Below are positions 10,894-28,809 of a DNA stretch of 64,000 nt, in pieces. Source of the stretch: Ardenticatenales bacterium (GTDB lineage Bacteria; Chloroflexota; Anaerolineae; Epilineales; Epilineaceae); contig JADYYS010000067.1 of the NCBI GenBank assembly GCA_020853525.1, positions 1,319-65,318 of the forward strand, given 5' to 3'. The notes below the pieces were generated by a model. The model made no database searches, was not told where the DNA came from, and saw nothing but the letters and a program-made list of their open reading frames with translations. Both the position numbers and the translations under genes were made by a program. Every line of letters begins with the position of its first letter. Within the stretch, counting starts at the first letter, position 1.

Positions 10894-10934
10894 GTTGACG
10901 TCCTTCATCTGTTCGCCGAAACAAGACAGCATGA

Positions 10935-11233: not shown

Positions 11234-14200
11234 CTACAACGGCAGCGCGTTGGGATCCCCCATCTGCGGCGCACCGATGTACGGCGGCGGCCAGTCCACC
11301 GGCGGCGGGATGATCCCCTCCCGCCAGCAGCCGGCAGCGTCGAAGATCTCCTCCCACGTCAGCGCCGGCGGCTCATCCTCGTCGAACGGCCCGGGCGCGG
11401 CGCGGGTGCAGCCGTAGAACAGCAGCTCGTTGGACATCGAGCGCCAGTTCAGCGTCAACAGGTACTGCTGGCCGTCCGGGACGACGAGCTCCGTGTAGCG
11501 GCCCGGCGTCACCTGGGTCTGATGCGTCTCCCAGCCGTACCGCATTCGCCCGTCCGGTCCGACGGACGCGCGGTCGTTGTAGGTCTCCCGCAGCTCGGTG
11601 CCGAAGCGGGGCTCGTCCGCCTCGGCGCGGATGCTGACCGCCAGCGGCCCGGCGGCCGCCAACTCTCCGACGCACGGACCGAACGTGTCGACGTCCTGGA
11701 AGTCGGCCGCGGGCAGGCGCTGGACGTCGACGGCGATCGTGTGATCCGTGTTGAACGGCGGCAGGACGGAGATCTGCGGCGGCTGGCCGCCCAGGAAATA
11801 GCCCTGCTGGAACAGCGAGTCCTGTGGGTTGAAGAAGTTGCCCTTCGGCACCGGCGTGCGGAGCGTCAGGAAGGCGAAGCCCTCGTTGCACGTCGCCGGG
11901 TCGGCCGGGTTCGTACCGGGCAGCGGCTGCGTCATGAGCGCCACGACGTTGTACTCGTGGCCGTCGACGTAGAACCGTTTGAGGTACCACGGATCGCCCG
12001 GGAAGAGGTCGTGCGCGCCGGCACCGTTGTCGATCGCCGAGTGCGTCGCGCCGAGCGCGCGGCCGACCGTCACCGACACGGACTCGCCGTCCGGGGCAAC
12101 GTCCTCGACGAACAGGAACCACGCGCCGTCCAGGCTGCCGAGGTTCGTCGCGCCGGGCGGCACGATCCGCACCCGGTCCTGGAAACGGTCGACGACGACG
12201 ACGCTGCCGAGCGGCACGGTCTGGATGCCGCGGACGGGCTCGGGGCGGGCGCTGCCGACGGTGCCGCCGGTGAACCAGAACCGGAACTGGGCGCTCAGGC
12301 CGGGCGTGACGTTCTCGAGCACCGCCATGTGGTCGAAGACCATCACGCTATCGGTGACCCCCGCGGTCAGCGGATCGCGGTCGAGGGTGACGCTCTGGAT
12401 CGCGAACACCGCCAGCTCGTTCCCGTTCAGCGCCACGCAGTCCTCGTCGAGGTCGTCCAGCGCGCCGTCGCCGTCGAACTCGACGACCGGTCCGGCGAGC
12501 GGGAGCGGTGCACCGGGGCCCTGCGGGCGGTTCGCCTGCCAGGCGAAGTCGAAGTAGTCGTTGATCGTCGCCTCGGTCTCGAGCGTCACCGGCTCCGGCA
12601 CGCCGTCGAAGTTCGCGTCGAACGTCGTCAAGCCGTGGCCGAACTGGCCGCCGGGCGGCAGTGTACCGCCGGCGTTGGGCTTGGGCAGCTCGAGGGCGCG
12701 CGTGCCCATCGGCAGCGCCACGCGGCTCGAGCCGGCCGGCACGGCGACCGGGTTGTCCGTCGTGTCCATCATGAGGTAGGTGTACTCTTGGACGACGGCC
12801 TGGAACGTCAGGTCGCTGTGGCAGTCCAGGTCCTGGCGGATCTTCGTGATGTAGTCCGGTTGATACCACAGCCGCTGGTAGACCTTCTGGCGCGCGTTCT
12901 GGCCGTCGTTCGAGATCCCGCGGTAGAGGTCGACGAGGTCCTCGCCGAAGTTGCGGTACTCGTCGAGGTAGGCCGGGTTGAACGTCAGCGAGTCGTGGCG
13001 CGGCGCGTCGGGCGCCTGCGGGTTGAACGGGGCGAACGGGTCGGTGTAGGGCGGCACCTCGACCGGATAGCCGGCGATGTCCGTCGTGACCGTGATGTCG
13101 CCCGCGCCGCTCAGCAGCGCGGCCCGGGATGCCGCGCCGTCGCACGCCAAGTCGTCCACGCAGACCGGCAGGCCGCCGTAGATCCGGACCCCTTCGTCGC
13201 CCGTGAAGAGCTTTTCTCGCTCGTCGGGGTCGAAAGCGAAGCTCGCGCGGCGGGGCAGGCCGTAGTTGCCGGTCAGCGGGTCGAACGCGGTCTCGTCGGC
13301 GGTGAGGTCGGGCGGGGGCGGCGGCATCTCGTCCGGGACCGGGCCGTCCGGCATCGTCCATTGGCGCCAGCGCGCCGTCGGGTTGAGGAAGCCGCTCGTC
13401 ACGTCGTAGCGGTCGGGGTCGCACGCGACCGGGCTGCCGCCGGGGGCGGCGAGGTCCGGCAGCGCGAACTCGGTGAAGTGCCACGGCTGGGTGAAGATCC
13501 GCTCGTTGTAGAAGAACGCGTCCGGCACGGACGGGTCCACGATGCACGCCGAATCGTCGAAGCGCCGTGCGCCGTACTTCTCGGCCAGCTGGCCGACGAA
13601 CGCCGGGTTCGTGTCCTCCTCGACGTACAGCCAGTGGCTCGATCGGAAGCCGGCGCCCGCGCCGAGGCTGTACGGGCCGACCGGGCTGGCCGGGTCGCGG
13701 CCGACGTACGTCCCGCCGTCGCCGGCGCCCAGCACCGGCGGCACCGGCCCGATCGGGCCGCCCATGTACAGGACCCTCGGCCGGTCGATCGGATCGTCGG
13801 CCGTCGGCGCCGGGCACGCGTCGATCGCGTCCAGCACGGCCACGTCCTCGAGGATCGTGTGCTCGTGGTTGAACGGCGGCGGGAGCGGCAGGGCGCGGTT
13901 CGGACCGTAGGCCTGCAGGCGCACGGAGTGCTGCTCGATCGTCACCGGCACCTTGGGCACCGGCGCGCGGAGCGTGATGTACTGCATCGCGTTCGCACCG
14001 CACGTCATGATCGCCACGACGTTGTACTCGTGGCCGTCCACGTACAGGCGCTTGAGGAACCACGGCCCGCCGGCGCTGCGGTTCGCGACGTTGGCGATGC
14101 GCTCCATGCTGGCGCACGGCGCGCCGAGCGCCCGGCCGACGGTGACGGTGGCCGTGACGTCCGCCGTGTCCACGCCGTGAACGGCGATGAACCACCCGCC

Positions 14201-17200
14201 GACGGGCACCTGCCCGAGGCTGCTGCCGCCCGGCACGACGAGCTGCACCGGACCGACCTCCCCCGCCAGCGCCGCGCCGCCGACGCCGATCGACGCCGTC
14301 GCCACGAGCCGCGGGACGAGGTCGCCCGTGTAGAAGATCCGCACCGTTGCCGAACTGCTCGAGACCCCCTGCACGGTGACGAAGTGGTCGAGGAACTGCA
14401 GCCGCTGGTTGCGGCCGATCTCGGCCGCGTCGGTGTGCAGCACGACCATCTCGTCGCACGAGAGCGGCGCGCCGTCGCCGTCGATGTCGTCGACGAGGCC
14501 GTCGCCGTCGAAGTCCAGCGTCAGGCCGAGGTCCGCCGCCAGCGTCGCCTCGCTGGCCACGTTCACCATGTCGAACGTGCCGTCGAAGTTCGCGTCGAGG
14601 CTCGTCAGGCCGTAGCCGACGGTTGGTCCGGCGGCACTCGTCTCGGATGCGCCGATGCCGACCGGGAACACGATCCGCGAGCCGCCGGCCGTCGCGCACG
14701 CCGGGCGCGGGGCGGAGTCGTCGAGGCGATCGGGCGACGGGTCGGGCTGCGGCACGTCGTTGTCAAGGACGACATAGGTCAGTTCGGTCATGATCGCCGG
14801 GTACCACTCGTCGCGCGCCGATGGCGCCGGGTTGACGGGCGCGTCGGGGCGGCCGTCGTCCGGCAGGCCCGTGTTCGTCAGGCAGTCGTCGGCGTTCAGA
14901 TCCTTGTCCAGCCGCGTCGGCTCGTACCAGTGCCGCAGCCAGACCTTCTCGGACCCGTTCACGCCGCCGACGCGGATATTCGTGTTCGCGCTGACCTCGT
15001 CGGCGCCGGTGGCGCAGCCCCAAGCCGCGCCGAGGCCCGGCTCGTTCAGCCGCTCCGAGATCCAGGCCGGGTTCCACGTGACGAAGTCCTGCTCGGGCGC
15101 CTCGCCGGACAGCGGGTTGAAGGGCCCCTCGGGATCGGTGTACGGCGCGTCCTCGGGCACGCGCCCCGTCAGCGGGTCGACGAGGCTGTTCGAACCGGCC
15201 GACGCACGCCGGTTGCCCTCGCCGCTGACGACGGCGTTGCAGACGACGCTCAGGCCGTGGACGCGGATCGTCGGCAGGTCGGCGGTGCCGCGGCGGTTCA
15301 CGTAGAGGTCGTCCGGATCGGTCGGGTCGTAGAAGACCTTGACGCGCGACGTGCCGTCCAGCGAGACGTCGCCGAACTCGACGACCTCGTCGTTGCCCGC
15401 CGTGACCGTGACCGTGACGGCGTTCGGCGTCGTCGAGATGTAACCGTTCGGATCCGATTCGGAGACGACGTAGCTGCCGGGCGGTACGTCGGTGAACACG
15501 TAGTTGGCGGCCGCGTCCGTCACGGCGGTGGCGCCGTTGGACAGCCGGACGACAACGCCCGGGATCCCGACCTCGCCCGGATCGCGGACGGTGTCGCGGT
15601 CGATGTCCTCCCAGACCATGCCGTGCACCATGCCGCCCGCCGGCACGCCCGGCCGGTCGCCGAAGTTCACGACCGCCGCGGCGCCGGGTCCGAGAACGAC
15701 GGCGACGACGTTCGGTGTCGTCGAGGCGAAGCCCGGCAGATCCGTCTCCGTCACGGTGTAGTTGCCGGGAACGAGGTTGAGGAACGCGTACCCGCCCGTG
15801 CCGTTCGTCACCCGCACCGCACCGTTGGACAGCGTCACCGTCACACCGGGCAGCCGCGCTTCGCCGAGGTCGATGACGCCGTCGCCGTCCGTGTCGTTCC
15901 AGACCGTGCCCGAGATGCCGGCCGGCGCCGGCGTCGGCGTCGGGGTGCGCGTGGCGGTCGGCGTCGGCGTGTTCGTCGGGGTCGGCGTCAGCGTGCGGGT
16001 GGGCGTGTTCGTCGGGGTGGCGGTCGCGGTTGCCGTGTTGGAAGGCGTCGACGTCGGCGTGTTCGTGGGCGTGTCGGTGGGTGTCGACGTGGGCGTGGCC
16101 GTCGGCGTGGATGTCGACGTCGCGGTGCGCGTCGATGTCGCCGTGCGCGTCGGCGTGTCGGTCGGCGTGTTCGTCGGCGACGGAGTCGACGTGGCCGTGC
16201 TCGTCGATGTCGGCGTGTTTGTGCGCGTGCTCGTCGCCGTCGGCGTCGGGGTCGGCGGGTCGAACTGGACGGGCGTCGGATCGTTCTCGCCGGGCTCGTC
16301 GGCGTTGCCGTCGCCGTCCGGATCGGGGTTCGTGCCGTCGTCCGAGGCGTCGCTCGCGATCGTTCCCGCCGGGCTCGTCGCCGAAGCGATGGCGCTGTTC
16401 AGATGCGGGCCGAGCGCCGTGCCGGGCATGACGGTCACGACGAGCGTGATCGTCCCGGTGCCGAGGAGCGGCAGCGTGTCGGTTCCGCTCAACAGCAGGG
16501 TGTCGACGTCGCCGTCGTACAGCGGGTTCTCGGTGAACGCCGCGCTCGTCACGCTGTCGACGGTAAACGATGTCACGCCGCCGAACGTCGCGGCCAGGTC
16601 GTCCGTCACCTGGAGGCCGGTCAGCACGACATCGCCCAGGTTCTCGACGACGAGGTCGTACGTCACGGTCGACGTGCCGTTCATGTTGTTCACGAGGCTC
16701 GTCACGCGCTTGGCGACGCCGATGGACGGCACCTCGACGAACTGGACGGGCGTCGGATCGTTCTCCCCGGGCTCGTCCGCGTTGCCGTCGCCGTCGGGGT
16801 CGGGCTCCGTGCCGTTGTCGGACGGGTCGGTGACGGTCGGGTTCCCGGTGCTCTGGCCGCTGCCGATGGCCGAGTTGAAACATGGGCCGAGGTTGGCGCC
16901 GGGCGTGACGGTGACGCTCACCTGGATCGTGCCCGTCGCGCCGACGGCCAGCGTGTCGGTGCCGTCCAACAGGTCGGTGTCCGTGTCGCCGTCGTAGCCG
17001 GCGTTCACCGTGAAGTCGGCGCTCGAGGTGCCGTCGACGGTGAACGACGTCGCGCCGGCGAATGTCGCCGCCAGGTCGTCGACGACTTGGACGTTCGTCA
17101 GGGCGACATCGCCCAGGTTCTCGACCGTGAGGGTGTAGTCCACGGTGTGGGTGCCGTTGCCGTGGTTGAACACCATCGTCACGGTCTTGGCGACGCCGAT

Positions 17201-18205
17201 CGCCGGGTTCGTCGTCGGCGTGGCGGTCGGGGTCTGTGTCGCCGTCGGCGTGGGCGTCGCCGTGCTCGTCGCCGTTTCCGTCGGCGTCGAGGTCGACGTG
17301 GATGTCGGCGTCGCCGTCGGTGTCGGGGTGGCGACGACGATCACGACGAACACGCTGGCGTCCGGTCGGTCGCAGTTCGGCGCGGCGTCGAGGTTGGGGT
17401 CGTGGTTGTCGGTCGCCCAAAGCAGGTTCAGCGCGCTTGGGTCGCCGATCGCCGCGCGGGAGACGTACATGTCGACGAAGTCGCCCGTGACGGCGTAACC
17501 GACGGTGCTGTTCGTCGTGTTGCCCTGTGGCCCGCCGGCCCCGGCCGTTCCCGTGCCGAGCACGCGCTGCCAGTCGGCGCTGCCGATCGCGTTGTTCGTG
17601 TAATCGGGCGGATTGTTCGAACCCCATCGGGCGGAGAAGCCGGCGTTCAGGAGATCGTCCATGAACGTCAGCTCGCCCAGCTGGTTTCGGCCGAGCGTGC
17701 AGTCCGCCGGGACGCAGAGGTCCTCGAGGTTCAGCAGGTACTCGGCGTCGTTGATGTTGCCGCCGGAGATCGTGGCGTCGCTGCCGACGGTGTCCAGGAA
17801 CCACTTGTAACGGGCCTGGCCCTGGCTGTCGGCGCTCGGCCAGCCCGCCGGATCGATGTTCTCCATCCGCAGGTAGAGGTACGCGCTGTCGACCGCGTAG
17901 AACGTCGAGATCACGTCGCGGTGGTCGTTGCAGCCGCTCTCCGCCGCGTCGACGACGATCGGCGTCCACGTCGTCGGCCACGCCGCAAACGCCGCGGCCC
18001 GCCGGATCGCGTTCGGTGCCGGCCGCGGACGGCCGTGCTGCCCGTTCGAGGTGGCGATCCCTTGCGCCGATCGTGAACCGACCACCGCCCAAAGGCGCTG
18101 GCCTGCAATCCCGACGACGAGTGCCAGGACGAGCGCCGCGAGCGCGGCGAACGGAGCGGCGGGTGACGGCAGGCGAAAAGCGGGGCGCTGGTCGCGCTTG
18201 ACCAT
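11234..18205 (-). CDS. Giant secreted multi-domain protein (2323 aa). Order of parts: a signal peptide; a conserved ~230-aa N-terminal domain shared with the protein at 53625..56042; a Thr/Pro-rich linker; 2 DUF11/TIGR01451-type repeats; a long Thr/Pro linker; 2 SdrD/CnaB-like domains; and a ~1350-aa internally duplicated module of unknown function
   Basis: The ORF-track protein begins [26 protein letters not shown] (signal). It contains [32 protein letters not shown] and [21 protein letters not shown] twice. It contains a long [17 protein letters not shown]... linker. It contains [35 protein letters not shown] (CnaB/SdrD-like). The C-terminal 1350 aa are homologous to the N-terminal module of the next gene. 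The overlapping plus-strand ORF 11078..18076 is a low-complexity antisense artifact. Confidence 0.85.
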
Positions 18206-18417
18206 GGGTTGTCTCTCAGTGATGGCGATCGCAGCGCTGGTGGGGTTCCGCGCGATGGCAGCGAATCGTGCTCACGTATCGACCGACGGCCGCATGCAGT
18301 CCATGCACCCCGTCACACGCCTTGTCCGCTCGACGCGTCGACGCGCCCGCTCTATGCCACGAGGGCCGGCGACCTTGCGGCCGCCGGCCCCGTGGTGCGC
18401 GTCGCGCGCGCCTAGTA

Positions 18418-18484
18418 CTCTGTCACTGGACACGCTTCAGGTATACGACTGAGGTAGGCATCCGTAGACTCTGCAGTGACAGAG
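18418..18484 (-). terminator. Structured element with an 11-bp perfect inverted repeat (CTCTGTCACTG ... CAGTGACAGAG, ~45-nt loop region) beginning 3 nt after the stop codon of giant gene 3. Candidate terminator or RNA-processing stem
   Basis: The arms lie at 18418-18428 and 18474-18484, and the TAG stop of gene 3 is at 18487-18489. There is no clear U-tract. Confidence 0.3.
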
Positions 18485-18486
18485 CG

Positions 18487-21400
18487 CTAGCGCATGCTGT
18501 ACCCACGGTAGAGCGCCGGCAACAGCGCCCGACCGACGAACGCGTTGCGGTCCAGCAGCGCCTCGATCTTCTGCCCGTCGATCTTCGTCTCGATCGTCTT
18601 GCCGCTCGGATCGGCGAGCAGCGCGCTGTCGACGTTCCAGGCGCTGTCCACCGCGTCCTTCAGGACCTGGAACTCGATCGTGAAGAGCACGACGTCGCCG
18701 TACAGGCCGTTGGCCGGCCGCATCCGGGCGGCGGCGAAGCGGATCTCGCCGGCCGGATCGACCGTGTTCATCGCGACGAACGACGGTCCGTCGGCCTGCC
18801 AAGCGGCACCAGGCTTCACCTGGACGCCGCTGCCCTCGAGCGCATCGATGACCTTGACCTTCTGGGTGTCGAAGCGGACCTTGATGTCCGCGCCGTACAT
18901 GTTCCAGACGCCCTTGGCCACGACGTCGACGGCGATGGTCTCCTCGTCGACTGCCCGTACGTTGAGCGCGACGTCCGTCGGCCCATCCGGCCGCTCGGCG
19001 GGCGCACCCTCGGGCAGGCCGGTGGCGCGGAGGACGGCCGTCGGCAGCACGCCGCGCAGCGCCTTGGCCACCGCACGCTCGGTTGCAGGCGCGGTCGGAT
19101 CGCTGAAGAACGCGGCGCCGTTCTCCTCGCCGTTGTAGCCGAACGGCACGGCACCGCTCCGCCCGTAGTTCGTGCCGACGAGGACAAGGTCGAACAGGTT
19201 CACCTCGTGGTCGGCGTTGCAGTCGGCGCGGATGTCGGACGGCGGCGAGGTGCGGTAGTTCGCCCCGACGCGGACGAGGTCGAAGAGGTTGATGTTCGTG
19301 TTGTTGTCCGTGTCGCCGCCGGGTAGGGACGTGAACGGCAGGTCGAACGGCTGGCCGCCGGACACCCGGAACATCTGGTCGGCGCCGAGGTAGCACGCCG
19401 CGTCGGCGCTGAGGCGATGCTCGCCCTTCGGCACACCGCAGATGCTGAAGTAGCCGTTCGGCCCGGAGACACCGGCCGGCACGCCGTCCACATACACGAC
19501 GGCCCCGGTGTGGTCGCTCCGACCCTGCAGGTTCATGTAGCCGCGGATGCAGCTCGTCTTCTCCGCCGGCTGCGGCACCGTCGTGCAGCCGTCCGTCGGC
19601 ACGCTGGCGGCCGAGACCTGACCGGTCACCGAGTCACGCGCCGACACGCGGAACGTGTAGGACGTGTTGGCGAGGAGATCTGGCGTCTGATAGCTGTAGG
19701 CCGTGCCGGTGCCGACCTGCGTCGTGCTCGGCACCGTGGCCAGCGGGATGTACGACGAGCCGTTGAAGCTCACCTCGACATTGAACTCCGTCTCGAAGTT
19801 CGAGCTGTCGACCCAGGTCACGCGGACCTGCGACCCGCCGGGCAGGACGTTGCAGGCGGCGTTCAGCGGCGGCGGCGGCGCGGCGGTGACGGTGAACGTC
19901 GCCGCCGACGTGTTGTTCGCCGCGTTCGGGTCGGGCGTCTGTGCCGCCACGTGGGCGGTGTTCGTCACCTGCGTGCCGGCCGCCGTGTTGTGGCCGATCC
20001 GGACGACCACCTGGAACGTGCGCGTCTGGCCGCTGTTCACCGTCCCAAGGTTGCACGTCAAGGTCTGGCCCGCGATCTGACAGCCGGTCGTGTTGCTCTC
20101 ATGGGTCACCTGCGCCGGCAGCTGATCCGTGACGACGACGTTCGTCGCCGCGCCGGGGCCGTCGTTGTGGACGGTGAAGTCGTACGTCACGAGGCCGCCC
20201 TGCTGGGCCGGCGATGCCACGTTGACCGCCTTGGTGATCCGGACGTCGGCCGCCTGCGCGACGGTGATCTGAATCGTCACGCTGTCGTTGTTGTTCGCCG
20301 GCACCGGATCCGTGGCCGGGGAGCTGACGGAGGCCGAGTTCGTCACCGAGCCCGAAGCACCTGCCCCGATGCCGGCCGTCACCTGGATCGTCGCGAAACC
20401 GCCTGCCTGGATCGAGGGGATCGTGCACGTGAGCGTCTGGCCGCTGACGTTGCACCCGCCGCTGTTGCTGACGTGCGTCAGGCCGGGCGGCAGCGTGTCC
20501 ACCACCGTCACCGGACCGGTGTTGGACGGGCCGAGGTTGTCCACCTGCAGGCCGAACACCACCTGGCCGCCGGCCGTCACGATCGCCGGGTTCGCGCTCT
20601 TCTCGATGCTGAGGTCCGCCACGCGGCGCGCCGTCACGGTGTTGTTCACCTGGTTGTTGTTCGGATCCGTGTCCGGCGACGACGTCGCGACGGAGGCGGT
20701 GTTCACGAACTGCTGGCCCTGCGTGGCCGACGCCGGGATCGCGACGTTCACGTGGATCGTGCGCGTCGAGTCGTCTGCGACGCTGCCGAGGTTGCACGTG
20801 AGCGTTTGCCCCGTCGCCGTGCAGCCCCCGTCGTTGTCGACGAGGCTCGTCCCGGTGGGCAGGTTGTCGGTGAGGACGACGTTGTTCGCCGTGCCGGGGC
20901 CGAGGTTCTTGACTTCGATCGTGTATTGGATCGTCGTCCCGGCCACGGGCTGCGAATCGGACGCGGTCTTCTGGACCGCCAGGTTGACGTTCTGGCTGGG
21001 CGTCTCGACGACGAGCGCGACGGTGTCGCTGTTGTTCGCCGGCGCCGGATCGGGCGTGCCGCTCGTGACCGTCGCCGTGTTCGAGAACTGCGTACCCGAC
21101 GCGAGCCCCGCACCGACCGTCACCGGGATCTGGACGACGACCGTCGTGCCGTTGGCGATGTTGCCGAGGTTGCACGTCACCGTTGCGGCGGCGAGGCTGC
21201 AGGCCGGCGGGAGCGTGCCCGCCGTGACCTGCGCCGGCAGCGTGTCCGCCACGACGACGTTCTGCGCGGCGGCCGGGCCGTTGTTCGTGACCTTGAGGTC
21301 GAACGTGATCGCCTCGCCCGACAGCGGTGTCGGGTCGGAAGCCGTCTTGTCGATCGCCAGGTCGGCGTCGTTCGTCGGCTGGGACACGATGACGAAGGCG

Positions 21401-24400
21401 CTGTCGGCGTTGTCGGTGACGTCGGGATCCGGTTCGGACGACGTCGCGCTGGCGTTGTTCGTCAGCACGGTGCCCGGCTGCACGTTCTGGCCGACCTGCG
21501 CGACGATCGTGACCGTCTTCGTCTGGCCGTTCGCGAGCGGTCCGATGTTGCAGCCGGCGGCCAGCGCGGCCGCGCCGCACGTCTGGCTGTCGGAGACGTA
21601 CGTCATCCCGCTGGGCAGCGCGTCGGTGAGCGTGACGGTGGCCGCGTCGGACGGGCCGCTGTTCTTCACCTGGACGGTGAACGTCACCTGCGCCCCGGGC
21701 GGCGGCTGGACGCTGGAGGCGTCCTTGTCCACGCTGATATCGGCGCTGCGAACGGCCTCAACGGTGTCGTCGTCCTGGTTGTTGCCCGGATTCGGATCTT
21801 CCGTGTTCAGGCGATCCGGCGCGTCGGCGTCCAGCGTCGACGCCAGGAGCGCCTTGCCGTGCGCCACGCTGGCGACGTTCGTGAGCTGCGCTCCGTTCGG
21901 CACGTTCGCGTTGATGAGGACCGTCATCGTGAACAGCCGCGACTGACCGCTGTTCAGGGCGCCGAGGCTGCACGTGAGCGTGCGCACCGGACTCTGGATG
22001 CAGGCCGATGTCGCGCCCGGTCCGGCGGTATCGCTCTGGTACGTCATCCCCGCCGGCAGGTTGTCGGTGACGATGACGGAGGGGGCGTTCGCCGGGCCGA
22101 GGTTCTCGATGAGAAGGTTGAAGGCGTGCATCGTGCCCGGCGTGACGGTGATCGTCGGCGATGTCTTCGTCAACCGCAGATCGGCGCCCTGGGCGCTGCC
22201 GGTGACCAACGTGGTGGCCGACGCGGTGTTGTTGCCGGGCGTCGGGTCGACCGTCGCCGACGAGACCGACGCGCTGTTGATGAGCTGCGTCCCGGTCAAC
22301 GCGTCGTCGTCGACGTCGACGATGATCGTGAACTGCGCCGCCTGGCCCGAGAGGAGGCTGCCCAACGCGCACAGGCGCGTCGAGCCGCCGCCCGACGTGC
22401 AGCCGTTGGGGTTCGTCGTCGAGACGAACTCCGTGTCGAGCGGCAGGACGTCGTTCACCAGGACGTTGTTCGCGGTGTTGGGACCGTTGTTCGTGACGGT
22501 CAGCTGATAGGCGATCTGCTGCCCCGCCAGGATCTGGGCCGGCCCCGCCTTGGTGATCGCCAGATCGGCCGACGTCCCGGACGCAGGCGTGACGGACGTC
22601 TGCGCAGAGGCATTGTTGTTGCCCGGCGCCGGATCCGGCGTCGACGACGTGACCGAAGCGGTGTTCGTCAGCGTCGTGTTCGCTTGGCCCGCCGTCGTCT
22701 GGATCGTCACGACGACCGCCGCCGAGCCGCCCGAGACGATGCTGCCCATCGCGCATTGCAGGTTGGACGAAGCCGGCGGGTTCAGGCTGCAGACCGGCGG
22801 GATGCTGCCGACGAACGTCGTTCCGGCCGGCAGCGTGTCGTTCAGGGTCACGCCCGTTGCGGTGCTCGGACCGGCGTTGTTCACTGCCAGGGTGTAGTTG
22901 ACCGTGTTGCCGGCCTGCACGGACGTCGGCCCGGTCTTTGTCAGCGAGAGGTCGGCCGACGAAGCGCCGCCGACGGTCGTCGTCGTCGTGCTGCTGCTGT
23001 TGCCGCCGTCCGGGTCGGGCGTGTCGCTGTCGACGCCTGCGATATTCACGAGCTGCGTGCCTTGCGCCAGCCCGCCCACGGTCACGGTGATCGTGAACGT
23101 GCGCGTCACGCCGACGGCGATGTCGCCGAGGGTGCACGTGAGCGTTCCGACCGGGGCCTGCACGCAGCCGCCCGTGTCGGAGACGTACGTCACCCCGGCC
23201 GGAAGCGTGTCGACGACGACGACGTTCATGGCGTTCGACGGCCCGCCGTTGATGACGTTGATCGTGTAGACCAGCGTGCCGCCGGCCACGACGCTCGGCG
23301 GCGCCGACTTCGTGATCCGGAGGTCGGCGCTCGCGACGGCGATGACGGTCGCCGACGACGTGTTGTTCGCCGGCACCGGGTCGGAGACGCCGGCCGCGCT
23401 GACGACGGCGGTGTTGTTCAGGCTCGCCCCCGGTGCGACGTCCGCGTTGATCTTGGCCACGACGTGGAACGTGCGCGAGCCGCCCGAGGCGATGGCGCCG
23501 AGGTTGCACGTCAGCGTGCCGGGCGGTGCCTGCACGCAGCCCGCGTCATCGGAGACGTACGTCATTCCGACCGGCAGGACGTCCGTCACCTGGGCGTTCG
23601 CGACGGCGCTCGGGCCGAAGTTGGAGGCCACCAGCGTGAACGTCACGTTGCCGCCGGCGGTGTACGGGCCGGCCGAGGCCGACTTCTCCAGCCGGAGGTC
23701 GGCCGCAGCGGCGACGATGACCGCCGCCTGCGCCTGGTTGTTGCCGAGCGTCGGATCCGGCGTGTTCGACTGGACCGCGGCGCTGTTCGTCAGGATCGTG
23801 CCGGTCAGTGCGCCCGGCGCCACCTGGACGGTGATCGCCACGGCGGCCGACGCGCCGGCGGCCAGCGTGCCGATCGTGCAGTTGATCGTGTTCGGCGGGC
23901 CCTGGACGCACGCGCCGTTCGAGGCGACGTAGTTCAGCCCGACGGGCAGCGTGTCGATGATGTGGACGTTTGTGGCGTCCGACGGCCCGTTGTTCGTGAC
24001 CAGGAGCTGGAAGACCACCTGGTCGCCCGGTCGCGGCGTGATGATCGACGCGCTCTTGGCGATCGCCAGGTCGGCCGCGCGCGTCGTCGTGACGACGGCG
24101 GTGGCCGAGTTGTTGGCCAGGTTCGGGTCGAGCGTGCTCGTCGATGACACCGTGGCGGTGTTCACGAGGACCGTCCCGACCGGGATCTCCATGTCCAAGC
24201 GCACCGTGACCGTGAAGGAACGCGTCTGGCCGACGGCGATGCTGCCGAACGTGCATGTGAGCGTCCCCACCGGACCCTCGACGCAGCCGTCCGTGTCGGA
24301 GACGTACGTCACGCCTTCGGGCAGGACGTCGCGGACGGTGACGTCGGTGACCGCGTCGGGTCCGTTGTTCGTGACCGAGATCGTGTAGACGAGCTCGCCG

Positions 24401-27400
24401 CCGGCCACCGGGGCGGCCGTCGAGGCCACCTTCGTGATCGAGAGGTCGGCCAGGTCGACCGGCACCGTCACGTCGCGGGTGTTGATGTAGATGTCATCCG
24501 TGTTCGCCGGGTCATAGAAGACCTTGACGCGCGTCGGCTGACCGAGCGGGCAGGCGCCGTCGAAGTAGCCGACGGTGATGTTGTCCTCGTCGTCGAAGAC
24601 GTGCACCTGCGGCGGGTTCGGGTTGTTCACCGGCGGGATGATCCCGAGCGGCGGGGCCCAGGTGTCGCCGGCGGCGCTGATGTCCGTGTGGTCGAGCGCC
24701 GGCGGGTTGAACTCGTTCGGCCCCGGGCCGGGGAAGAACGGGCCGGGCTCGTCGCGCGTGCAGCCGTAGAACGCCAGCTTGCTCACGGGCGACGTCCAGC
24801 CGAGCGTCAGGAGGTACTTCTGGCCCTCCGGCACCCGGATGGCGGTGAAGTTCGACGGCGTGACCATGAGCTGGTGGGTGTTCCAGCCCGTGCGCGTGTT
24901 CTGACCGGTTACCGCCGGCGCGAAGGTCTCGCGCAGCTCGGTGTGCAGCCGCGTCTCGTCCGTCTCTTCGAGGATCGTCTCGACCATCGGATCGGCGGCG
25001 GCAAGCTCGCCCACACAGCTCAGGTAGCCGTTCTGGAAGGCGAAGTCGATCGGCGCCAAGCGGTCGATGTCCAGCGCCAGCGTGTGCTGGAAGTTGAACG
25101 GCGGCAGAACGGACATCTCCGCCGGCAACCCGTTCAGGAAGTAGCCCTGATAGAACAGGGAGTCCTGCGGGTTGATGAAGTTGCCCTTCGGCACCGGGGT
25201 GCGGATCGTGATGAACGCGAAGTTGTCGTTGCACAGTCCGGCCGCGCCGCTGTTCTCGGTCATCAGCGCCACGACGTTGTACTCGTGGCCGTCGACGTAG
25301 AAGCGCTTGAGGTACCACGGGTCGCCCGGCAGGAGATCGTGGCTGCCGTTGCCGTCGTCGATCGCCGAGTGGGTGCCGCCGAGGGCGCGGCCGACGGTCA
25401 ATGTCACGCGGTCGCCGGAAGGCGCGACGTCCTCGACGAACGCGAACCAGGCACCGTCGGGGGCGATGTTCGCCTCGCCCGGGCCGACGATCGTCACGCG
25501 GTCCTGGAAGCGGTCGACGAGCACGGCGTCGCCGATGTCGAGCGTCCGGATGCCGCCGACCGCCTCGGGACGGGCGTTGTTCGGGTTGCCGCCGGTGAAG
25601 AACAGGCGGAACTGGGCGCGCGTGTTGGGCGTGACGTTGTTGAGCGTGATGAGGTAGTCCAGGAACTGGGCGTTGTGGCCCTCGGGCGTGTTCGGATCGA
25701 GATCGAGCGTCAGGCTCTGTACGGCGAAGACCGCCATCTCGTTCCCGTTCAGCGCCTGGCAGTCGGCGTCGAGCGCGTCCTGGACGCCGTCGCCGTCGAA
25801 GTCGAGCACCGGGCCGGCGAGCGGCGTCACGGGGACGCCAGGCAATGTCGGGCGGTTGGACTGCCACTGCTGGTCCAGGTACTGGTTCAGCGTCTGCTCG
25901 GAGTGGATGTTCGATGCGTCGCTGTAGCCGTCGAAGTTCGCGTCGAACGTCGTCAAGCCGTAGCCGAACTGGCCGCCCGCCGGCAGCGTGCCGTTCGGGT
26001 TGGGCGCGGGCAGATCACCGGCGCGCGAGCCGACCGGGAAGGCGATCCGGCTCGAACCGGGCGGCACGCCGGTCGGGTTGTCGGTCGTGTCCATCATCAG
26101 GAACGTGTATTCCTGGACGATCGCCGGGAACTTCAGGTCGCGTTGGCAGTCATCCGTGAAGCGCAGCTTGTCGACCCAGTCCGGCTGGTACCACGTGCGG
26201 TGGTACACCTTCTCACGGGCGTTCTGCGCACCGTTCGAGATCTGCTGGTACAGCTCGCGGAGCGGCTCGTTGAAGTTGCGGAACTCGTCCATGTAGGCCG
26301 GGTTGAACGTCAGCGAGTCCGTGCGCGGCGCATGCGGGTGCTGCGGGTTGAACGGCGCGAACGGGTCGGTGTACGGCGGCACCTCGACCGGATACGCCGC
26401 CAGGCCCGAAATCGGGTCCGTGGCCACGCCGGTGTCGCCTGCGCCGAAGAGGATCGACGGGCGGCTGATGATGCCGTTGCACTCCAGGTCGTCGCAGACC
26501 GGGAAGCCGCCGTACAGCCGGAGGCCGTCGTTGTTCGCGGTCAGCTTGCCCTTGTTGTCGTCGGGGTCGTGGATGAAGGTGACGCGGCGCGGTGAGCCGT
26601 AGCTGCCCGTGACCGGGTCGAAGACCGTCTCGTCGATCTGCAGGTCGGGCGGGGTCGGCGGCTGATCCTCGGGCACCGAGCCGTCGGGCATCCGCCACAG
26701 CCGCCAGCGCGCGGTATCGTTCGTGAAGCCGCTCGTCACCAGGTAGTTGTCCGGATCGCACGCCGGCACACCGCCGGCCACGGGCGCCCCGGCCTGGTCG
26801 GGCAGGACGAACTCGGTGTAGCGCCACGGCTGGGTGAACACCTGCTCGTTGTAGAAGAAGCTCTGCGGGATCCCGGGCGGCTGCGGCACGCCCGGTGCCG
26901 TGTTCAGCGCGCCGTACTTCTCCCGGATCTGGCCGATGAACGGCTCGTAGCCCTCTTCCTCGGTGTAGAACCAGTGGCTGGCGAAGTAGTTGTCGTATGG
27001 GCCGACCGCGCGCTGCGGGTCGCGGCCGGTGTATACGAGCGCGTCGCTCTGCGCCAGGACGGGCGGCATCGGGCCCATCGGGCCGCCCATGTAGAGGATC
27101 TCGGGGCGCGCGACCTCGTCGTCGCCGGGCAGGATCGGGCAGAGATCGAAGCCCTTGAAGTCGATGACATCCTCGAGGATCGTGTGCTCGTGGTTGAACG
27201 GCGGCGGCAGCACGAGCGGCTCGAGCACACCGTAGCCCTCGAGGCGCACGGAGTGCTGCTCGATCGTCACGTCGACCTTCGGCAGGGGCGAGCGGAGGGT
27301 GATGTACTGGATGGCGTTGGTGGCGCACGTCATGATCGCCACGACGTTGTACTCGTGGCCGTCGACGTAAAAGCGCTTGAGCCACCACGGGCCGCCGGGC

Positions 27401-28809
27401 GAGCGGTTCGCCACGTTCGGCGTCGATTCCATCGACGCGCACGGCGCGCCGAGCGCACGGCCGAGGACGACGGTCACCGTGCCGTCGACGGCGTCGGTGC
27501 CCTGGACGTAGACGAAGAATGGGCCGATCGGCATCTGGCCGAGGAGGTTCGCGCCGGGCTGGACGACCTGCAGCGGGCCGACGTCGGCCGCCAGCGCCAT
27601 GCCGTTGACGCCGATCGAGCGGACCTGGACGAGGCGCGGTCGGAGGTCGCCGTTGTACCAGACCTCGAGCACGGCGGCCTGCGACGAAACGTTGCGGACG
27701 CGCACGAAGTGGTCGAGGAACTGGACGGTGCTGCCGCTGTGGATCGTCATCGAGTCCGTCGAGAGGACGACCATCTCGTCGCACGAGAGCGCGACGCCGT
27801 CCGTGTTCACGTTGTCCAGGACGTTGTCGCCGTCGAAGTCGACGGTGATCCCGGAATCGGCGGCCTGCGTGATCTCGCTGCCGACGTTCACCATGTCGTT
27901 CATGCCGTCGAAGTCGACATCGAGGCTCGTGAGACCGTCGCCGCTGAGCGGCCCGGCCGGGTCGGTCGCGCCCAGCGACGTGCCGACGGGGAAGACGAAC
28001 CGCGTCTCACCGGCGCGGCCGCAGATCGGGCGCGGGGCGCTGTCGTCCAGGCGATCCGGGTCGGGATGGGCCACCGGCAGCTCGTTGTCGAGGAGCTGAT
28101 AGGTGAACTCGGTCATGATCGCCGGGTACCACTCGTCCTGGTTGGACGGCGTCGGGTTGACGGCGGCATCCGGCGTCCCGTTGTTGTTGCTGTCCGTCAG
28201 GCAGTCGTCGGAGTTGAGGTCCTTGTCGAGGCGGGTCGGCTCGTACCAGTGGCGGAGCCAGACCTTCTCCGAACCGTTCACGCCCGACGCGCGGATGTTC
28301 GAATCGCGCGAGACCTCGTCGGCGGCGCGCAGGCAGTTCCACTGTGCCCGGAACGGGGCTTCGTTCAACCGCTCCGAGATCCAGGCCGGATCCCAGGTGA
28401 CGTAGTCGAACTCGGGCGCCTCGGTCGAGAGCGGGCTGAACGGTCCCGTCGGATCCGTGTACGGCGGATCCTCCGGCACGTTCTGCGTGTTCGGGTCGAG
28501 GATGGTGTTCGAACCCGCCGTCGCCGGCCGGTTGCCCTCCCCGATGATGCACGAGTTGCAGACCGTGGTGTAGCCGTACAACCGCAGCGTGTCGATCCGC
28601 TCGGTGATGTCGGCCAGCGGAGCGGCGGCGGGGGAGGCGGCGGGGGCTGCGGCAGGCGCCGCACCGGCCATGCCGGCACCCAGGCCGAGGCCGCCCGCCA
28701 TGGCAACGGTCACGGCCATGCAGGCACGCCAGACAGCCGCGCTCCGCGAGCGCGCCTCCGGACGACGGTCGGTTGCCAGACGGGTGGACTGCGAGCGGGA
28801 CTGACTCAT
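18487..28809 (-). CDS. Giant secreted multi-domain protein (~3440 aa). Order of parts: a signal peptide; a ~1350-aa internally duplicated module of unknown function; about 20 DUF11 repeats; an FN3-like domain; a carboxypeptidase-regulatory-like domain; a duplicated dockerin-type Ca-binding segment; and a C-terminal cohesin-like beta-sandwich
   Basis: ORF-track protein 18487..28887. I place the start at 28809 (MSQSRSQS..MAVTVAMAGGLGLGAGMAGAAPA signal) because a GGAGGAG Shine-Dalgarno-like motif sits 7 nt upstream. DUF11 units are of the type DLSITKVASTAAPVAGGELVYTISVTNNGPDAVTDVTVRDVLPEGVTYV. The FN3 hallmark TSYTFRVSARD is present. Dockerin-like segments are GDTDNNTNINLFDLVRVGANY and DCNADHEVNLFDLVLVGTNYG. 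The cohesin-like segment reads GDVVLFTIEFQVLKD. Confidence 0.85.
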   Translation of the reverse strand: MSQSRSQSTRLATDRRPEARSRSAAVWRACMAVTVAMAGGLGLGAGMAGAAPAAAPAASPAAAPLADITERIDTLRLYGYTTVCNSCIIGEGNRPATAGSNTILDPNTQNVPEDPPYTDPTGPFSPLSTEAPEFDYVTWDPAWISERLNEAPFRAQWNCLRAADEVSRDSNIRASGVNGSEKVWLRHWYEPTRLDKDLNSDDCLTDSNNNGTPDAAVNPTPSNQDEWYPAIMTEFTYQLLDNELPVAHPDPDRLDDSAPRPICGRAGETRFVFPVGTSLGATDPAGPLSGDGLTSLDVDFDGMNDMVNVGSEITQAADSGITVDFDGDNVLDNVNTDGVALSCDEMVVLSTDSMTIHSGSTVQFLDHFVRVRNVSSQAAVLEVWYNGDLRPRLVQVRSIGVNGMALAADVGPLQVVQPGANLLGQMPIGPFFVYVQGTDAVDGTVTVVLGRALGAPCASMESTPNVANRSPGGPWWLKRFYVDGHEYNVVAIMTCATNAIQYITLRSPLPKVDVTIEQHSVRLEGYGVLEPLVLPPPFNHEHTILEDVIDFKGFDLCPILPGDDEVARPEILYMGGPMGPMPPVLAQSDALVYTGRDPQRAVGPYDNYFASHWFYTEEEGYEPFIGQIREKYGALNTAPGVPQPPGIPQSFFYNEQVFTQPWRYTEFVLPDQAGAPVAGGVPACDPDNYLVTSGFTNDTARWRLWRMPDGSVPEDQPPTPPDLQIDETVFDPVTGSYGSPRRVTFIHDPDDNKGKLTANNDGLRLYGGFPVCDDLECNGIISRPSILFGAGDTGVATDPISGLAAYPVEVPPYTDPFAPFNPQHPHAPRTDSLTFNPAYMDEFRNFNEPLRELYQQISNGAQNAREKVYHRTWYQPDWVDKLRFTDDCQRDLKFPAIVQEYTFLMMDTTDNPTGVPPGSSRIAFPVGSRAGDLPAPNPNGTLPAGGQFGYGLTTFDANFDGYSDASNIHSEQTLNQYLDQQWQSNRPTLPGVPVTPLAGPVLDFDGDGVQDALDADCQALNGNEMAVFAVQSLTLDLDPNTPEGHNAQFLDYLITLNNVTPNTRAQFRLFFTGGNPNNARPEAVGGIRTLDIGDAVLVDRFQDRVTIVGPGEANIAPDGAWFAFVEDVAPSGDRVTLTVGRALGGTHSAIDDGNGSHDLLPGDPWYLKRFYVDGHEYNVVALMTENSGAAGLCNDNFAFITIRTPVPKGNFINPQDSLFYQGYFLNGLPAEMSVLPPFNFQHTLALDIDRLAPIDFAFQNGYLSCVGELAAADPMVETILEETDETRLHTELRETFAPAVTGQNTRTGWNTHQLMVTPSNFTAIRVPEGQKYLLTLGWTSPVSKLAFYGCTRDEPGPFFPGPGPNEFNPPALDHTDISAAGDTWAPPLGIIPPVNNPNPPQVHVFDDEDNITVGYFDGACPLGQPTRVKVFYDPANTDDIYINTRDVTVPVDLADLSITKVASTAAPVAGGELVYTISVTNNGPDAVTDVTVRDVLPEGVTYVSDTDGCVEGPVGTLTCTFGSIAVGQTRSFTVTVRLDMEIPVGTVLVNTATVSSTSTLDPNLANNSATAVVTTTRAADLAIAKSASIITPRPGDQVVFQLLVTNNGPSDATNVHIIDTLPVGLNYVASNGACVQGPPNTINCTIGTLAAGASAAVAITVQVAPGALTGTILTNSAAVQSNTPDPTLGNNQAQAAVIVAAAADLRLEKSASAGPYTAGGNVTFTLVASNFGPSAVANAQVTDVLPVGMTYVSDDAGCVQAPPGTLTCNLGAIASGGSRTFHVVAKINADVAPGASLNNTAVVSAAGVSDPVPANNTSSATVIAVASADLRITKSAPPSVVAGGTLVYTINVINGGPSNAMNVVVVDTLPAGVTYVSDTGGCVQAPVGTLTCTLGDIAVGVTRTFTITVTVGGLAQGTQLVNIAGVDSDTPDPDGGNSSSTTTTTVGGASSADLSLTKTGPTSVQAGNTVNYTLAVNNAGPSTATGVTLNDTLPAGTTFVGSIPPVCSLNPPASSNLQCAMGSIVSGGSAAVVVTIQTTAGQANTTLTNTASVTSSTPDPAPGNNNASAQTSVTPASGTSADLAITKAGPAQILAGQQIAYQLTVTNNGPNTANNVLVNDVLPLDTEFVSTTNPNGCTSGGGSTRLCALGSLLSGQAAQFTIIVDVDDDALTGTQLINSASVSSATVDPTPGNNTASATTLVTGSAQGADLRLTKTSPTITVTPGTMHAFNLLIENLGPANAPSVIVTDNLPAGMTYQSDTAGPGATSACIQSPVRTLTCSLGALNSGQSRLFTMTVLINANVPNGAQLTNVASVAHGKALLASTLDADAPDRLNTEDPNPGNNQDDDTVEAVRSADISVDKDASSVQPPPGAQVTFTVQVKNSGPSDAATVTLTDALPSGMTYVSDSQTCGAAALAAGCNIGPLANGQTKTVTIVAQVGQNVQPGTVLTNNASATSSEPDPDVTDNADSAFVIVSQPTNDADLAIDKTASDPTPLSGEAITFDLKVTNNGPAAAQNVVVADTLPAQVTAGTLPPACSLAAATVTCNLGNIANGTTVVVQIPVTVGAGLASGTQFSNTATVTSGTPDPAPANNSDTVALVVETPSQNVNLAVQKTASDSQPVAGTTIQYTIEVKNLGPGTANNVVLTDNLPTGTSLVDNDGGCTATGQTLTCNLGSVADDSTRTIHVNVAIPASATQGQQFVNTASVATSSPDTDPNNNQVNNTVTARRVADLSIEKSANPAIVTAGGQVVFGLQVDNLGPSNTGPVTVVDTLPPGLTHVSNSGGCNVSGQTLTCTIPSIQAGGFATIQVTAGIGAGASGSVTNSASVSSPATDPVPANNNDSVTIQITVAQAADVRITKAVNVASPAQQGGLVTYDFTVHNDGPGAATNVVVTDQLPAQVTHESNTTGCQIAGQTLTCNLGTVNSGQTRTFQVVVRIGHNTAAGTQVTNTAHVAAQTPDPNAANNTSAATFTVTAAPPPPLNAACNVLPGGSQVRVTWVDSSNFETEFNVEVSFNGSSYIPLATVPSTTQVGTGTAYSYQTPDLLANTSYTFRVSARDSVTGQVSAASVPTDGCTTVPQPAEKTSCIRGYMNLQGRSDHTGAVVYVDGVPAGVSGPNGYFSICGVPKGEHRLSADAACYLGADQMFRVSGGQPFDLPFTSLPGGDTDNNTNINLFDLVRVGANYRTSPPSDIRADCNADHEVNLFDLVLVGTNYGRSGAVPFGYNGEENGAAFFSDPTAPATERAVAKALRGVLPTAVLRATGLPEGAPAERPDGPTDVALNVRAVDEETIAVDVVAKGVWNMYGADIKVRFDTQKVKVIDALEGSGVQVKPGAAWQADGPSFVAMNTVDPAGEIRFAAARMRPANGLYGDVVLFTIEFQVLKDAVDSAWNVDSALLADPSGKTIETKIDGQKIEALLDRNAFVGRALLPALYRGYSMR

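What the first reader, a model, noticed from the sequence alone, without database searches (positions are those of the whole stretch)
15295..15354. Conserved module-boundary sequence VKVFYDP(T/A)(D/N)(P/T)DD(L/I)Y(V/I)N marks a recombination breakpoint used at opposite ends of the big module
In gene 2 this peptide is encoded at 15295-15354 and opens the 1350-aa module (it follows the CnaB domains). In gene 3 the same peptide closes the module and precedes the DUF11 array; there it is encoded at 24481-24540 and shares the 20-mer gtagaagaccttgacgcgcg. The same short peptide flanks the module on either side in the two genes. This is what domain shuffling by recombination at a conserved junction would look like.
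Basis: seen in the sequence. Interest (0 to 1): 0.55.

Follow-up and report, generated by a model that had tools for sequence, protein, structure and literature searches.

The report
Relocated end-strand of a surface-protein module
The short peptide is not a reusable recombination joint: it is the most conserved piece of a large, unannotated surface-protein module of Chloroflexota, it normally ends the module, and in gene 2's relatives it sits at the front instead.

Summary
[12 protein letters not shown] lies before the ~1330-aa module in gene 2 (aa 954-972) and after it in gene 3 (aa 1453-1471). The shared exact DNA run is 19 nt, not 20.

The interpretation does not hold.
- The module is two homologous ~650-aa units, A and B. 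A degenerate copy of the peptide lies between A and B in both genes.
- In about 250 homologues from Chloroflexota MAGs the normal order is A-pep'-B-pep-(variable domains). Gene 3 is therefore ordinary.
- Only gene 2 and seven other distinct proteins carry pep-A-pep'-B. None of them has a peptide after B, even when DUF11 domains follow.
- No evaluable protein has the peptide on both sides.
- A motif scan of 185,579 genomes found it only next to module units.
- The 19-mer matches background: the two modules share 14 exact runs of 19 nt or more.
- AlphaFold2 models place the copies after A and after B as beta-strands. A copy lacking its preceding unit is disordered.

Best reading: the peptide is a structural end-strand of the module. 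It moved from the C-end to the N-end in an old rearrangement, probably once, like a circular permutation. Whether it occupies the same position in 3D was not tested. Interest is modest.

The parts
15290..15346 (-). Gene 2 copy of the end-strand peptide (aa 954-972, [19 protein letters not shown]), placed before unit A. This is the permuted position.
   Evidence: It scores 29.9 bits against the peptide HMM. Its sequence is the type that normally follows unit B.
24475..24531 (-). Gene 3 copy of the same peptide (aa 1453-1471, [19 protein letters not shown]), placed after unit B. This is the canonical position.
   Evidence: The AF2 model has a strand at TRVKVFY with pLDDT about 89.
13202..13249 (-). 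Gene 2 degenerate copy (pep', aa 1653-1668, [16 protein letters not shown]) at the A/B junction.
   Evidence: The A-versus-B BLAST alignment starts at aa 954 against aa 1653. R, F, D and P fall in columns conserved at 90% or more across the family. AF2 gives a strand at RASFAF with pLDDT about 78.
26539..26586 (-). Gene 3 degenerate copy (pep', aa 768-783, RVTFIHDPDDNKGKLT) at the A/B junction.
13316..15286 (-). Gene 2 unit A (aa 974-1630).
   Evidence: The AF2 model of aa 940-1700 has pLDDT 81.7 and pTM 0.86. No Pfam, NCBIfam or PDB match.
11324..13180 (-). Gene 2 unit B (aa 1676-2294). A 29-aa tail and the stop codon follow, with no peptide.
26653..28605 (-). Gene 3 unit A (aa 95-745), directly after the signal/anchor region, with no peptide before it.
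24658..26517 (-). Gene 3 unit B (aa 791-1410).
   Evidence: The AF2 model of aa 760-1600 has pLDDT 84.5 and pTM 0.81.
15353..15922 (-). Gene 2 SdrD_B/CnaB-like domains (about aa 762-951) upstream of the peptide.
   Evidence: Pfam SdrD_B 1e-25 and SpaA 1.9e-10.
19918..24447 (-). Gene 3 DUF11 array (12 copies, aa 1481 to about 2990) downstream of the peptide.
   Evidence: Pfam DUF11 2.9e-288, 12 stretches, the first starting at aa 1481 at profile position 1.

Best explanation
The peptide (family consensus RVKFWYDPxDxxDIYVN; RVK[VIL]FYDP... in this subfamily) is a built-in structural element of an unannotated module of about 1330 aa found in Chloroflexota cell-surface proteins.

Shown:
- The module is a tandem pair of homologous ~650-aa units, A and B.
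- Each unit ends with a copy of the peptide: a diverged one (pep') between A and B, and the well-conserved one (pep) after B. After that, variable accessory domains begin.
- Gene 3 has this canonical order, A-pep'-B-pep-DUF11.
- Gene 2 belongs to a minority of eight distinct proteins in which the B-type peptide sits immediately before A and is absent after B (pep-A-pep'-B).

Inferred, with moderate support: the peptide forms a beta-strand that packs with, and caps, the unit in front of it.

Inferred:
- The permuted order arose from the canonical one by an old rearrangement, most simply duplication and fusion of tandem paralogues followed by trimming. That is the classical route to circular permutation.
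- It probably happened once.
- The relocated strand is still functional. No evaluable module has more than one B-type copy, none of the permuted proteins lacks it, and the copy stays strongly conserved in its new place.

Not shown: whether the N-terminal copy folds back onto unit B, which would make this a true circular permutation in 3D.
For: Internal repeat. A aligns with B at 30-32% identity, E = 6e-53 to 1e-64. The alignment starts exactly at the peptide: gene 2 aa 954 against gene 2 aa 1653 and gene 3 aa 768.

Family architecture. Searches gave 135 homologues, and the exhaustive search found 205 cluster representatives at E <= 0.001. The peptide precedes the first unit in 4 of 117 evaluable proteins, all of them gene 2 relatives. 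It lies at the A/B junction in 112 of 126 and after B in 93 of 109. Several apparent absences after B are degenerate copies.

More permuted members. CAZYVI010000011.1, CAZYVI010000014.1, P0138 and P0139 also carry pep before A, and none has pep after B.
- P0138 = SdrD_B x5 - pep - A - B - DUF11 x13, with no pep at the B/DUF11 joint.
- P0004 = signal peptide - pep - A - B - tail, a complete gene on a 109-kb contig.

Context. A motif scan of 185,579 species genomes gave 35 loci. Every locus with enough flanking DNA has a unit next to the motif: 30 with B upstream and 3 with A downstream.

Conservation. Across 90 after-B copies: R 97%, Y 97%, P 98%, D 92%, Y 91%, N 87%. Gene 2 and P0004 share 17 of 20 residues at the peptide, against 62% identity overall.

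DNA. The peptide is no more alike than the rest of the module.

Structure. The after-B copy is a strand with pLDDT about 89, and the after-A copy is a strand with pLDDT about 78. Copies at the N-end of a construct, lacking their preceding unit, score 28-66 and form no strand.

Shared derived details of all permuted proteins: the same N-junction (L.G[TS]S-RVK...YVN[RQ]RGxxxLPT[LI]R), a Cys-Trp at the end of B (9/9, counting P0081, against 0/17 canonical), and a PP[YF][IV]G tail.
Against: - Strand state and pLDDT show the peptide is ordered next to the preceding unit, but they do not show what it contacts.
- The alignment is only 4 sequences deep at gene 2's N-terminal peptide, so its low pLDDT is weak evidence.
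- The full module exceeds the 1200-aa modelling limit. Closure of the N-terminal strand onto unit B is untested.
- A neighbour-joining tree of A+B cores does not recover the permuted proteins as one clade (0/300 bootstraps). The conflicting nodes have only 30-85% support, so one origin is neither shown nor excluded. An earlier B-only tree with fewer taxa did group them.
- No intermediate with the peptide on both sides was found.
Confidence: 0.72

Rival explanations
1. One reading: the peptide-coding sequence is a conserved junction at which recombination repeatedly joins the module to other domain arrays, on either side.
For: The peptide lies at the module edge in both genes. Very different domains follow it in different homologues: DUF11, cohesin, dockerin, PKD and CarboxypepD_reg. 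The module-core tree does not group all permuted proteins, so more than one event cannot be excluded.
Against: - The peptide never occurs without a unit beside it.
- Only one of gene 3's 12 DUF11 copies has it. The two copies are the only ones anywhere in the window, so none of the other CnaB-like stretches there has it.
- In P0138, P0139 and P0081 the B/DUF11 joint lacks it.
- In P0004 it follows a signal peptide and no other domain.
- The DNA at the peptide shows the same synonymous divergence as the rest of the module.
- All permuted junctions have the same linker length and the same flanking residues.
Confidence: 0.05
2. The N-terminal copy in gene 2's relatives is a relic with no function. 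It would be the leftover C-terminal end of an upstream module that was otherwise deleted from a tandem-module ancestor. It persists only as a linker.
For: AF2 gives it pLDDT 28-46 and no strand in the half-module construct. The permuted proteins carry a new Cys-Trp at the end of B that could stabilise that end without the peptide.
Against: All motif positions are kept in permuted proteins whose module cores are only 64-68% identical. Gene 2 and P0004 share 17/20 residues at the peptide, against 62% overall. None of the eight permuted proteins has lost it.
Confidence: 0.12
3. The peptide belongs to a flanking known domain: the first strand of DUF11 in gene 3, or the last strand of the CnaB-like domain in gene 2.
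For: It abuts these domains. It ends 11 residues before the first DUF11 match and starts about 3 aa after the EVVEFGD strand.
Against: The DUF11 profile match starts at profile position 1, after the peptide. In the AF2 model the DUF11 strands start 23 residues after the peptide strand, with a low-confidence linker between them. Homologues have the peptide followed by Pro/Thr linkers or other domain types, or preceded by a signal peptide.
Confidence: 0.01

Closest known systems
Circular permutation of proteins by duplication/fusion and end-trimming (examples from my own knowledge: saposin/swaposin, DNA methyltransferases)
   Same: The same sequence segments occur in cyclically shifted order: A-pep'-B-pep against pep-A-pep'-B. 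No evaluable module carries more than one copy of the moved segment. Permuted and canonical paralogues lie side by side on the same strand in 4 loci of 3 genomes, which fits an origin from a tandem duplication.
   Different: Only a segment of about 20-28 aa out of about 1350 has moved. It is not shown that it occupies the same 3D position. No duplicated intermediate was found.
Capping motifs of repeat proteins (for example the N- and C-terminal caps of leucine-rich repeats; from my own knowledge)
   Same: A short, highly conserved terminal element closes each repeat unit and marks where the next domain starts.
   Different: The units here are about 650 aa, multi-domain and mostly beta, not short solenoid repeats. 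The cap can also sit at the other end of the module.
Donor-strand complementation in chaperone-usher pilins (from my own knowledge)
   Same: A strand that would normally complete a fold from the C-terminal side is instead carried at the N-terminus. The permuted module's unit B lacks its own C-terminal strand.
   Different: There is no evidence of complementation in trans. No chaperone or usher genes were looked for or seen. The units are not Ig-like pilin domains. This is a resemblance only.
DUF11 (PF01345) and SdrD_B/CnaB (PF17210) repeat surface proteins
   Same: Genes 2 and 3 carry these domains next to the module, as many giant bacterial surface proteins do.
   Different: The peptide is not part of either domain. 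It travels with the unannotated module.

Membership tests
Unnamed two-unit Chloroflexota surface module (this family) | Two homologous ~650-aa units, A then B | tested here: met
   Genes 2 and 3 both have A and B. A and B are 30-32% identical to each other, and the two genes' modules are 60.5% identical.
Unnamed two-unit Chloroflexota surface module (this family) | An RVKFW[FY]DP-type strand after each unit | tested here: met
   Gene 3 has it after A (degenerate) and after B. Gene 2 has it after A (degenerate). The B-type copy is present in gene 2 but lies before A.
Circular permutation | The same segments in cyclically shifted linear order | tested here: met
   pep-A-pep'-B against A-pep'-B-pep. 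The moved copy is of the B type and is as similar between the genes as the rest of the module.
Circular permutation | The moved segment occupies the same place in the folded structure | not testable with these tools
Circular permutation | A duplicated intermediate (segment at both ends) exists or is inferable | tested here: not met
   No evaluable protein has the peptide both before A and after B. Tandem canonical/permuted gene pairs are the only hint.
DNA-level recombination site or cassette junction | Nucleotide conservation above the coding background | tested here: not met
   Ten of 12 identical residues use the same codon, against 75% across the module. There are 14 module-wide exact runs of 19 nt or more, the longest 40 nt.
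DNA-level recombination site or cassette junction | Occurs at joints between varied modules, independently of any one protein family | tested here: not met
   All 33 evaluable genome loci with the motif have a unit A or B adjacent.
DUF11 (PF01345) | The peptide lies inside the domain model | tested here: not met
   The first DUF11 match starts at aa 1481 at profile position 1, while the peptide ends at aa 1469-1471. The other 11 DUF11 copies have no such peptide.
Donor-strand complementation (chaperone-usher pili) | An N-terminal strand completes another subunit's incomplete fold in trans | not tested
   No multimer modelling or experiment was possible. This is only an analogy.

The most novel reading that the evidence does not exclude
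In the permuted proteins, unit B has lost its own closing strand while a spare closing strand sits at the N-terminus. That N-terminal strand could insert into unit B of another molecule, either a second permuted protein or the adjacent canonical paralogue. It would link the giant surface proteins head-to-tail, much like donor-strand exchange in pili. If so, a small permutation would have turned a self-capped module into a self-assembling one in Chloroflexota.
Probability: 0.08. Interest if true: 0.7.

Novelty: new member of a known kind. Interest (0 to 1): 0.35.

Why it matters
It replaces an attractive but wrong reading, a recombination hot-spot for domain shuffling, with a testable structural one. 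The result is a clean natural case in which a short terminal strand of a very large module has changed ends while staying conserved.

It also gives a practical marker, RVKFW[FY]DP, for a module family that Pfam, NCBIfam and the PDB do not cover. The family has about 200 clusters at 50% identity and is almost entirely from Chloroflexota. The marker defines the family's unit boundaries for annotation and for construct design.

The wider biological weight is modest, because the function of the module itself is unknown.

Tried and rejected
- **Sequence search of both units against PDB chains:** nothing meaningful, one glucokinase hit at E = 0.0085.
- **Foldseek of both AF2 models against PDB:** unit A has no hit at E <= 0.001. 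For the B-pep-DUF11 model the full-length hits are integrin-alpha chains with TM about 0.1. The short hits are 106-171-column matches to small domains, about the size of the DUF11 copy in the construct. The fold was therefore not identified.
- **Pfam and NCBIfam on the module:** no family.
- **Literature search (Chloroflexi, cohesin, dockerin, Anaerolineae):** nothing on this module.
- **My first idea, that the peptide is the first strand of the following unit, so that the C-terminal copy closes a ring onto A.** This was weakened by AF2. The copy placed N-terminal to B without A is disordered, while copies C-terminal to A or B are strands.
- **My early claim of a single origin from a B-only tree.** It did not survive a larger A+B tree. 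It now rests on shared junction characters instead.
- **Remnant of a lost peptide downstream of gene 2's stop codon:** none.
- **One Python tree run timed out** and was redone.
Full report
**1. What is in the window**

The window is high-GC DNA. Three giant genes lie head to tail on the minus strand.
- Gene 3: 18487-28887, 3466 aa. Its likely true start is Met27 at nt 28809.
- Gene 2: 11234-18205, 2323 aa.
- A third open frame from 11100 to the window start, more than 3700 aa.

Pfam finds two SdrD_B/CnaB-like domains and weak DUF11/DUF7507 matches in the first 950 aa of gene 2. It finds 12 DUF11 copies and an fn3 in gene 3. It finds nothing on the ~1330-aa module the two genes share. NCBIfam and a sequence search of PDB chains also find nothing.

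**2. Check of the observation**

[16 protein letters not shown] is gene 2 aa 955-970 (nt 15296-15343). VKVFYDPANTDDIYIN is gene 3 aa 1454-1469 (nt 24481-24528). The modules align over gene 2 aa 974-2294 and gene 3 aa 95-1410 at 60.5% identity.

Each junction segment finds only the other copy in the window, with E = 4e-7 and 2e-6. The shared exact DNA run is 19 nt (15330-15348 and 24515-24533), not 20.

That run is not special. In a codon alignment the two modules are 71% identical at the nucleotide level. Of the identical residues, 75% use the same codon. There are 14 exact runs of 19 nt or more, the longest 40 nt. At the peptide, 10 of 12 identical residues use the same codon. The two peptide copies have diverged about as much as the modules they belong to, so nothing points to a recent exchange or a DNA-level site.

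**3. The module is an internal repeat, and the peptide is part of it**

Each module is two homologous units, A and B, 30-32% identical (E = 6e-53 to 1e-64). The A-versus-B alignment begins exactly at the peptide: gene 2 aa 954 aligns with gene 2 aa 1653 and with gene 3 aa 768.

Both genes therefore carry a further, degenerate copy (pep') between A and B: [16 protein letters not shown] in gene 2 and RVTFIHDPDDNKGKLT in gene 3. In family alignments the R, F, D and P of these copies fall in columns conserved at 90% or more.

The layouts are:
- Gene 2: CnaB - pep - A - pep' - B - stop.
- Gene 3: signal - A - pep' - B - pep - DUF11 x12.

**4. The family**

Two word-indexed searches returned 135 homologues. 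Those that carry a source name are MAGs of Chloroflexota classes: Anaerolineae, Ardenticatenales and Caldilineae. An exhaustive HMMER scan of 1.84 billion cluster representatives found 205 at E <= 0.001. The family is small and lineage-restricted.

I mapped units A and B and the peptide on every protein. The usual order is signal peptide - A - RVKFWFDPAxGGKKYK - B - RVKFWYDPxDxxDIYVN - variable accessory domains. Those domains include cohesin, dockerin, CarboxypepD_reg, PKD, DUF11, VWA and LysM.

Counts:

| Position of the peptide | Proteins with it | Proteins evaluable |
|---|---|---|
| A/B junction | 112 | 126 |
| After B | 93 | 109 |
| Before the first unit | 4 | 117 |

Several proteins scored as lacking it after B have degenerate copies. 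All four with the peptide before the first unit are gene 2 relatives. The after-B copy is among the best conserved stretches of the family: R 97%, Y 97%, P 98%, D 92%, Y 91%, N 87% over 90 copies. Gene 3 is therefore an ordinary member.

**5. The permuted minority**

Gene 2 shares its order with seven other distinct proteins:
- P0003 (98% identical to gene 2).
- The gene on CAZYVI010000011.1 (83% identical in unit A).
- P0002 (78% identical overall).
- The gene on CAZYVI010000014.1 (77% identical in unit A).
- P0004 (62% identical overall).
- P0138 and P0139 (55% and 53% over pep-A-pep').

All have the B-type peptide about 10 residues before A's first strand. None has it after B.

- P0004 is a complete gene on a 109-kb contig, and its peptide follows the signal peptide directly. 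No domain lies in front of it.
- P0138 is GEVED - SdrD_B x5 - pep - A - pep' - B - DUF11 x13. It has both kinds of neighbour seen in genes 2 and 3 but only one peptide, on the N side.
- P0139 and the N-truncated P0081 likewise run from B into DUF11 without the peptide.

No evaluable protein has the peptide on both sides.

**6. Independent genome-level test**

I scanned 185,579 species genomes for a degenerate DNA pattern encoding R-V-K-x-x-Y-D-P-x4-D-x-Y-x-N. It gave 35 loci: 33 in Chloroflexota MAGs and 2 on contigs binned as archaea.
- 30 loci have unit B directly upstream.
- 3 have unit A directly downstream, with a CnaB-like domain upstream.
- 2 have too little flanking DNA to judge.
- None lies outside a module.

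The scan also showed that CAZYVI010000011.1 is syntenic with the window. Its gene 3 orthologue is 92% identical in unit B. This places the window in or near an uncultured Anaerolineales lineage.

**7. Structure**

I ran two AlphaFold2 jobs, each with a homologue alignment.

Gene 3 aa 760-1600 (pep'-B-pep-DUF11) gave pLDDT 84.5 and pTM 0.81.
- The C-terminal pep is a strand (TRVKVFY) with pLDDT about 89.
- Just upstream there is a short strand (YFD) with pLDDT about 86, which may pair with it.
- The N-terminal pep', which lacks unit A in this construct, scores 40-66 and forms no strand.
- The DUF11 strands begin 23 residues after the peptide strand.

Gene 2 aa 940-1700 (pep-A-pep') gave pLDDT 81.7 and pTM 0.86.
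- pep' after A is a strand (RASFAF) with pLDDT about 78.
- The N-terminal pep scores 28-46. The alignment there is only four sequences deep.

Taken together, the peptide behaves as the last strand of the preceding unit. Foldseek found no convincing PDB neighbour for the units.

**8. Origin**

Canonical order is found in all outgroups and in the great majority of proteins, so it is ancestral.

A B-only tree grouped the gene 2 relatives. A larger A+B tree of the subfamily is close to a star, with all pairwise identities between 63% and 75%. It splits the permuted proteins into three well-supported groups. Their positions among the canonical proteins are supported at only 30-85%. Monophyly was never recovered in 300 bootstraps, but it is not strongly contradicted either.

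Three shared derived characters favour one event.
- An identical N-junction in all permuted proteins: L.G[TS]S-RVK...YVN[RQ]RG-xxx-LPT[LI]R.
- A Cys-Trp at the end of B in 9 of 9 permuted proteins, counting P0081, and in 0 of 17 canonical ones.
- A common PP[YF][IV]G tail.

The junction reads like a fusion of a canonical post-peptide linker (for example NRRGVRLP in P0137, NRRTVDLP in P0001) with a canonical N-terminus of A (SSLPTLRLYG) at a shared Leu-Pro. This is weak inference.

Permuted and canonical genes lie side by side on the same strand in four loci of three genomes:
- the window and CAZYVI010000011.1, in the order canonical then permuted;
- CAZYVI010000014.1 and JBDTSC010000072.1, in the order permuted then canonical.

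That fits an origin among tandem paralogues. P0004 stands alone, without a paralogue beside it.

**9. Mechanism and verdict**

Most likely the peptide is a capping beta-strand of the module. It is needed once per module in its well-conserved B form. In one old rearrangement it moved from the C-end to the N-end. The argument for continued function rests on three facts:
- the two positions are mutually exclusive;
- none of the eight permuted proteins has lost it;
- it is more conserved than the surrounding sequence (17/20 between gene 2 and P0004, against 62% overall).

Whether it reaches back to unit B in the same chain (a true circular permutation), acts in trans, or has a new role is open.

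The recombination-junction interpretation is not. The finding is a new example of a known evolutionary phenomenon, in an uncharacterised protein family. Interest is modest.

Noticed in passing
window 11324-15286 and 24658-28605 (minus strand): The ~650-aa units A and B have no Pfam, NCBIfam or PDB-sequence match and no convincing Foldseek neighbour in the PDB. Even so, the AF2 models are confident (pLDDT 82-85, pTM 0.81-0.86). The family has about 200 clusters at 50% identity, almost all from Chloroflexota MAGs, and is often fused to cohesin, dockerin or CarboxypepD_reg domains. It is an unannotated, possibly new-fold surface module.
   Followed up: partly
window 11234-28887; L036+L018 (CAZYVI010000014.1); L037+L011 (CAZYVI010000011.1); L002 (JBDTSC010000072.1): A permuted gene and a canonical A-pep'-B-pep-DUF11 gene lie adjacent on the same strand in four loci of three genomes, in both possible orders. 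P0004 is the exception and stands alone. This suggests origin by tandem duplication and perhaps a functional partnership.
   Followed up: partly
gene 2 aa ~2293 (window ~11324-11329) versus gene 3 aa ~1446 (window ~24550): A cysteine switch. All nine proteins that lack the peptide after B (the eight permuted proteins and P0081) end unit B with Cys-Trp. The closest canonical relatives instead have x-Trp there and a Cys in PY[FY]DA.C just before the peptide. This may be a relocated disulfide partner for the FYGC cysteine.
   Followed up: no
window 1-11100 (minus strand): A third giant open frame (more than 3700 aa, running off the window start) lies directly downstream of gene 2. It has CnaB-like segments and an array 57-72% identical to gene 2 aa 333-648, but no A/B module and no peptide.
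   Followed up: partly
window 55224-55928 (minus strand, within ORF 53625-56162): A stretch 56% identical to the N-terminal domain of gene 2 (aa 65-302). This is a paralogue of an unannotated N-terminal domain, about 37 kb away.
   Followed up: no
L023 (CAZOEM010000078.1, binned as Halobacteria) and L028 (JACUTR010000010.1, binned as Methanophagales): Two contigs assigned to archaeal MAGs encode distant units (26-29% identical) followed by a perfect RVKFWYDPxDxTDIYVN. This is either mis-binning or spread of the module beyond Chloroflexota.
   Followed up: no
window 28809-28887: The mechanical ORF of gene 3 starts at a TTG at 28887. The homologue P0001 begins at the equivalent of Met27 (MSQ...), so the real start is probably the ATG at 28809.
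   Followed up: partly
P0152, P0159, P0161, P0168, P0170, P0173, P0178, P0183 and others: Distant family members have two A-like units instead of A plus B, or shorter units. Most where it could be seen still carry an RVKFW[FY]DP element between or after the units. The strand is therefore older than the A/B divergence.
   Followed up: no
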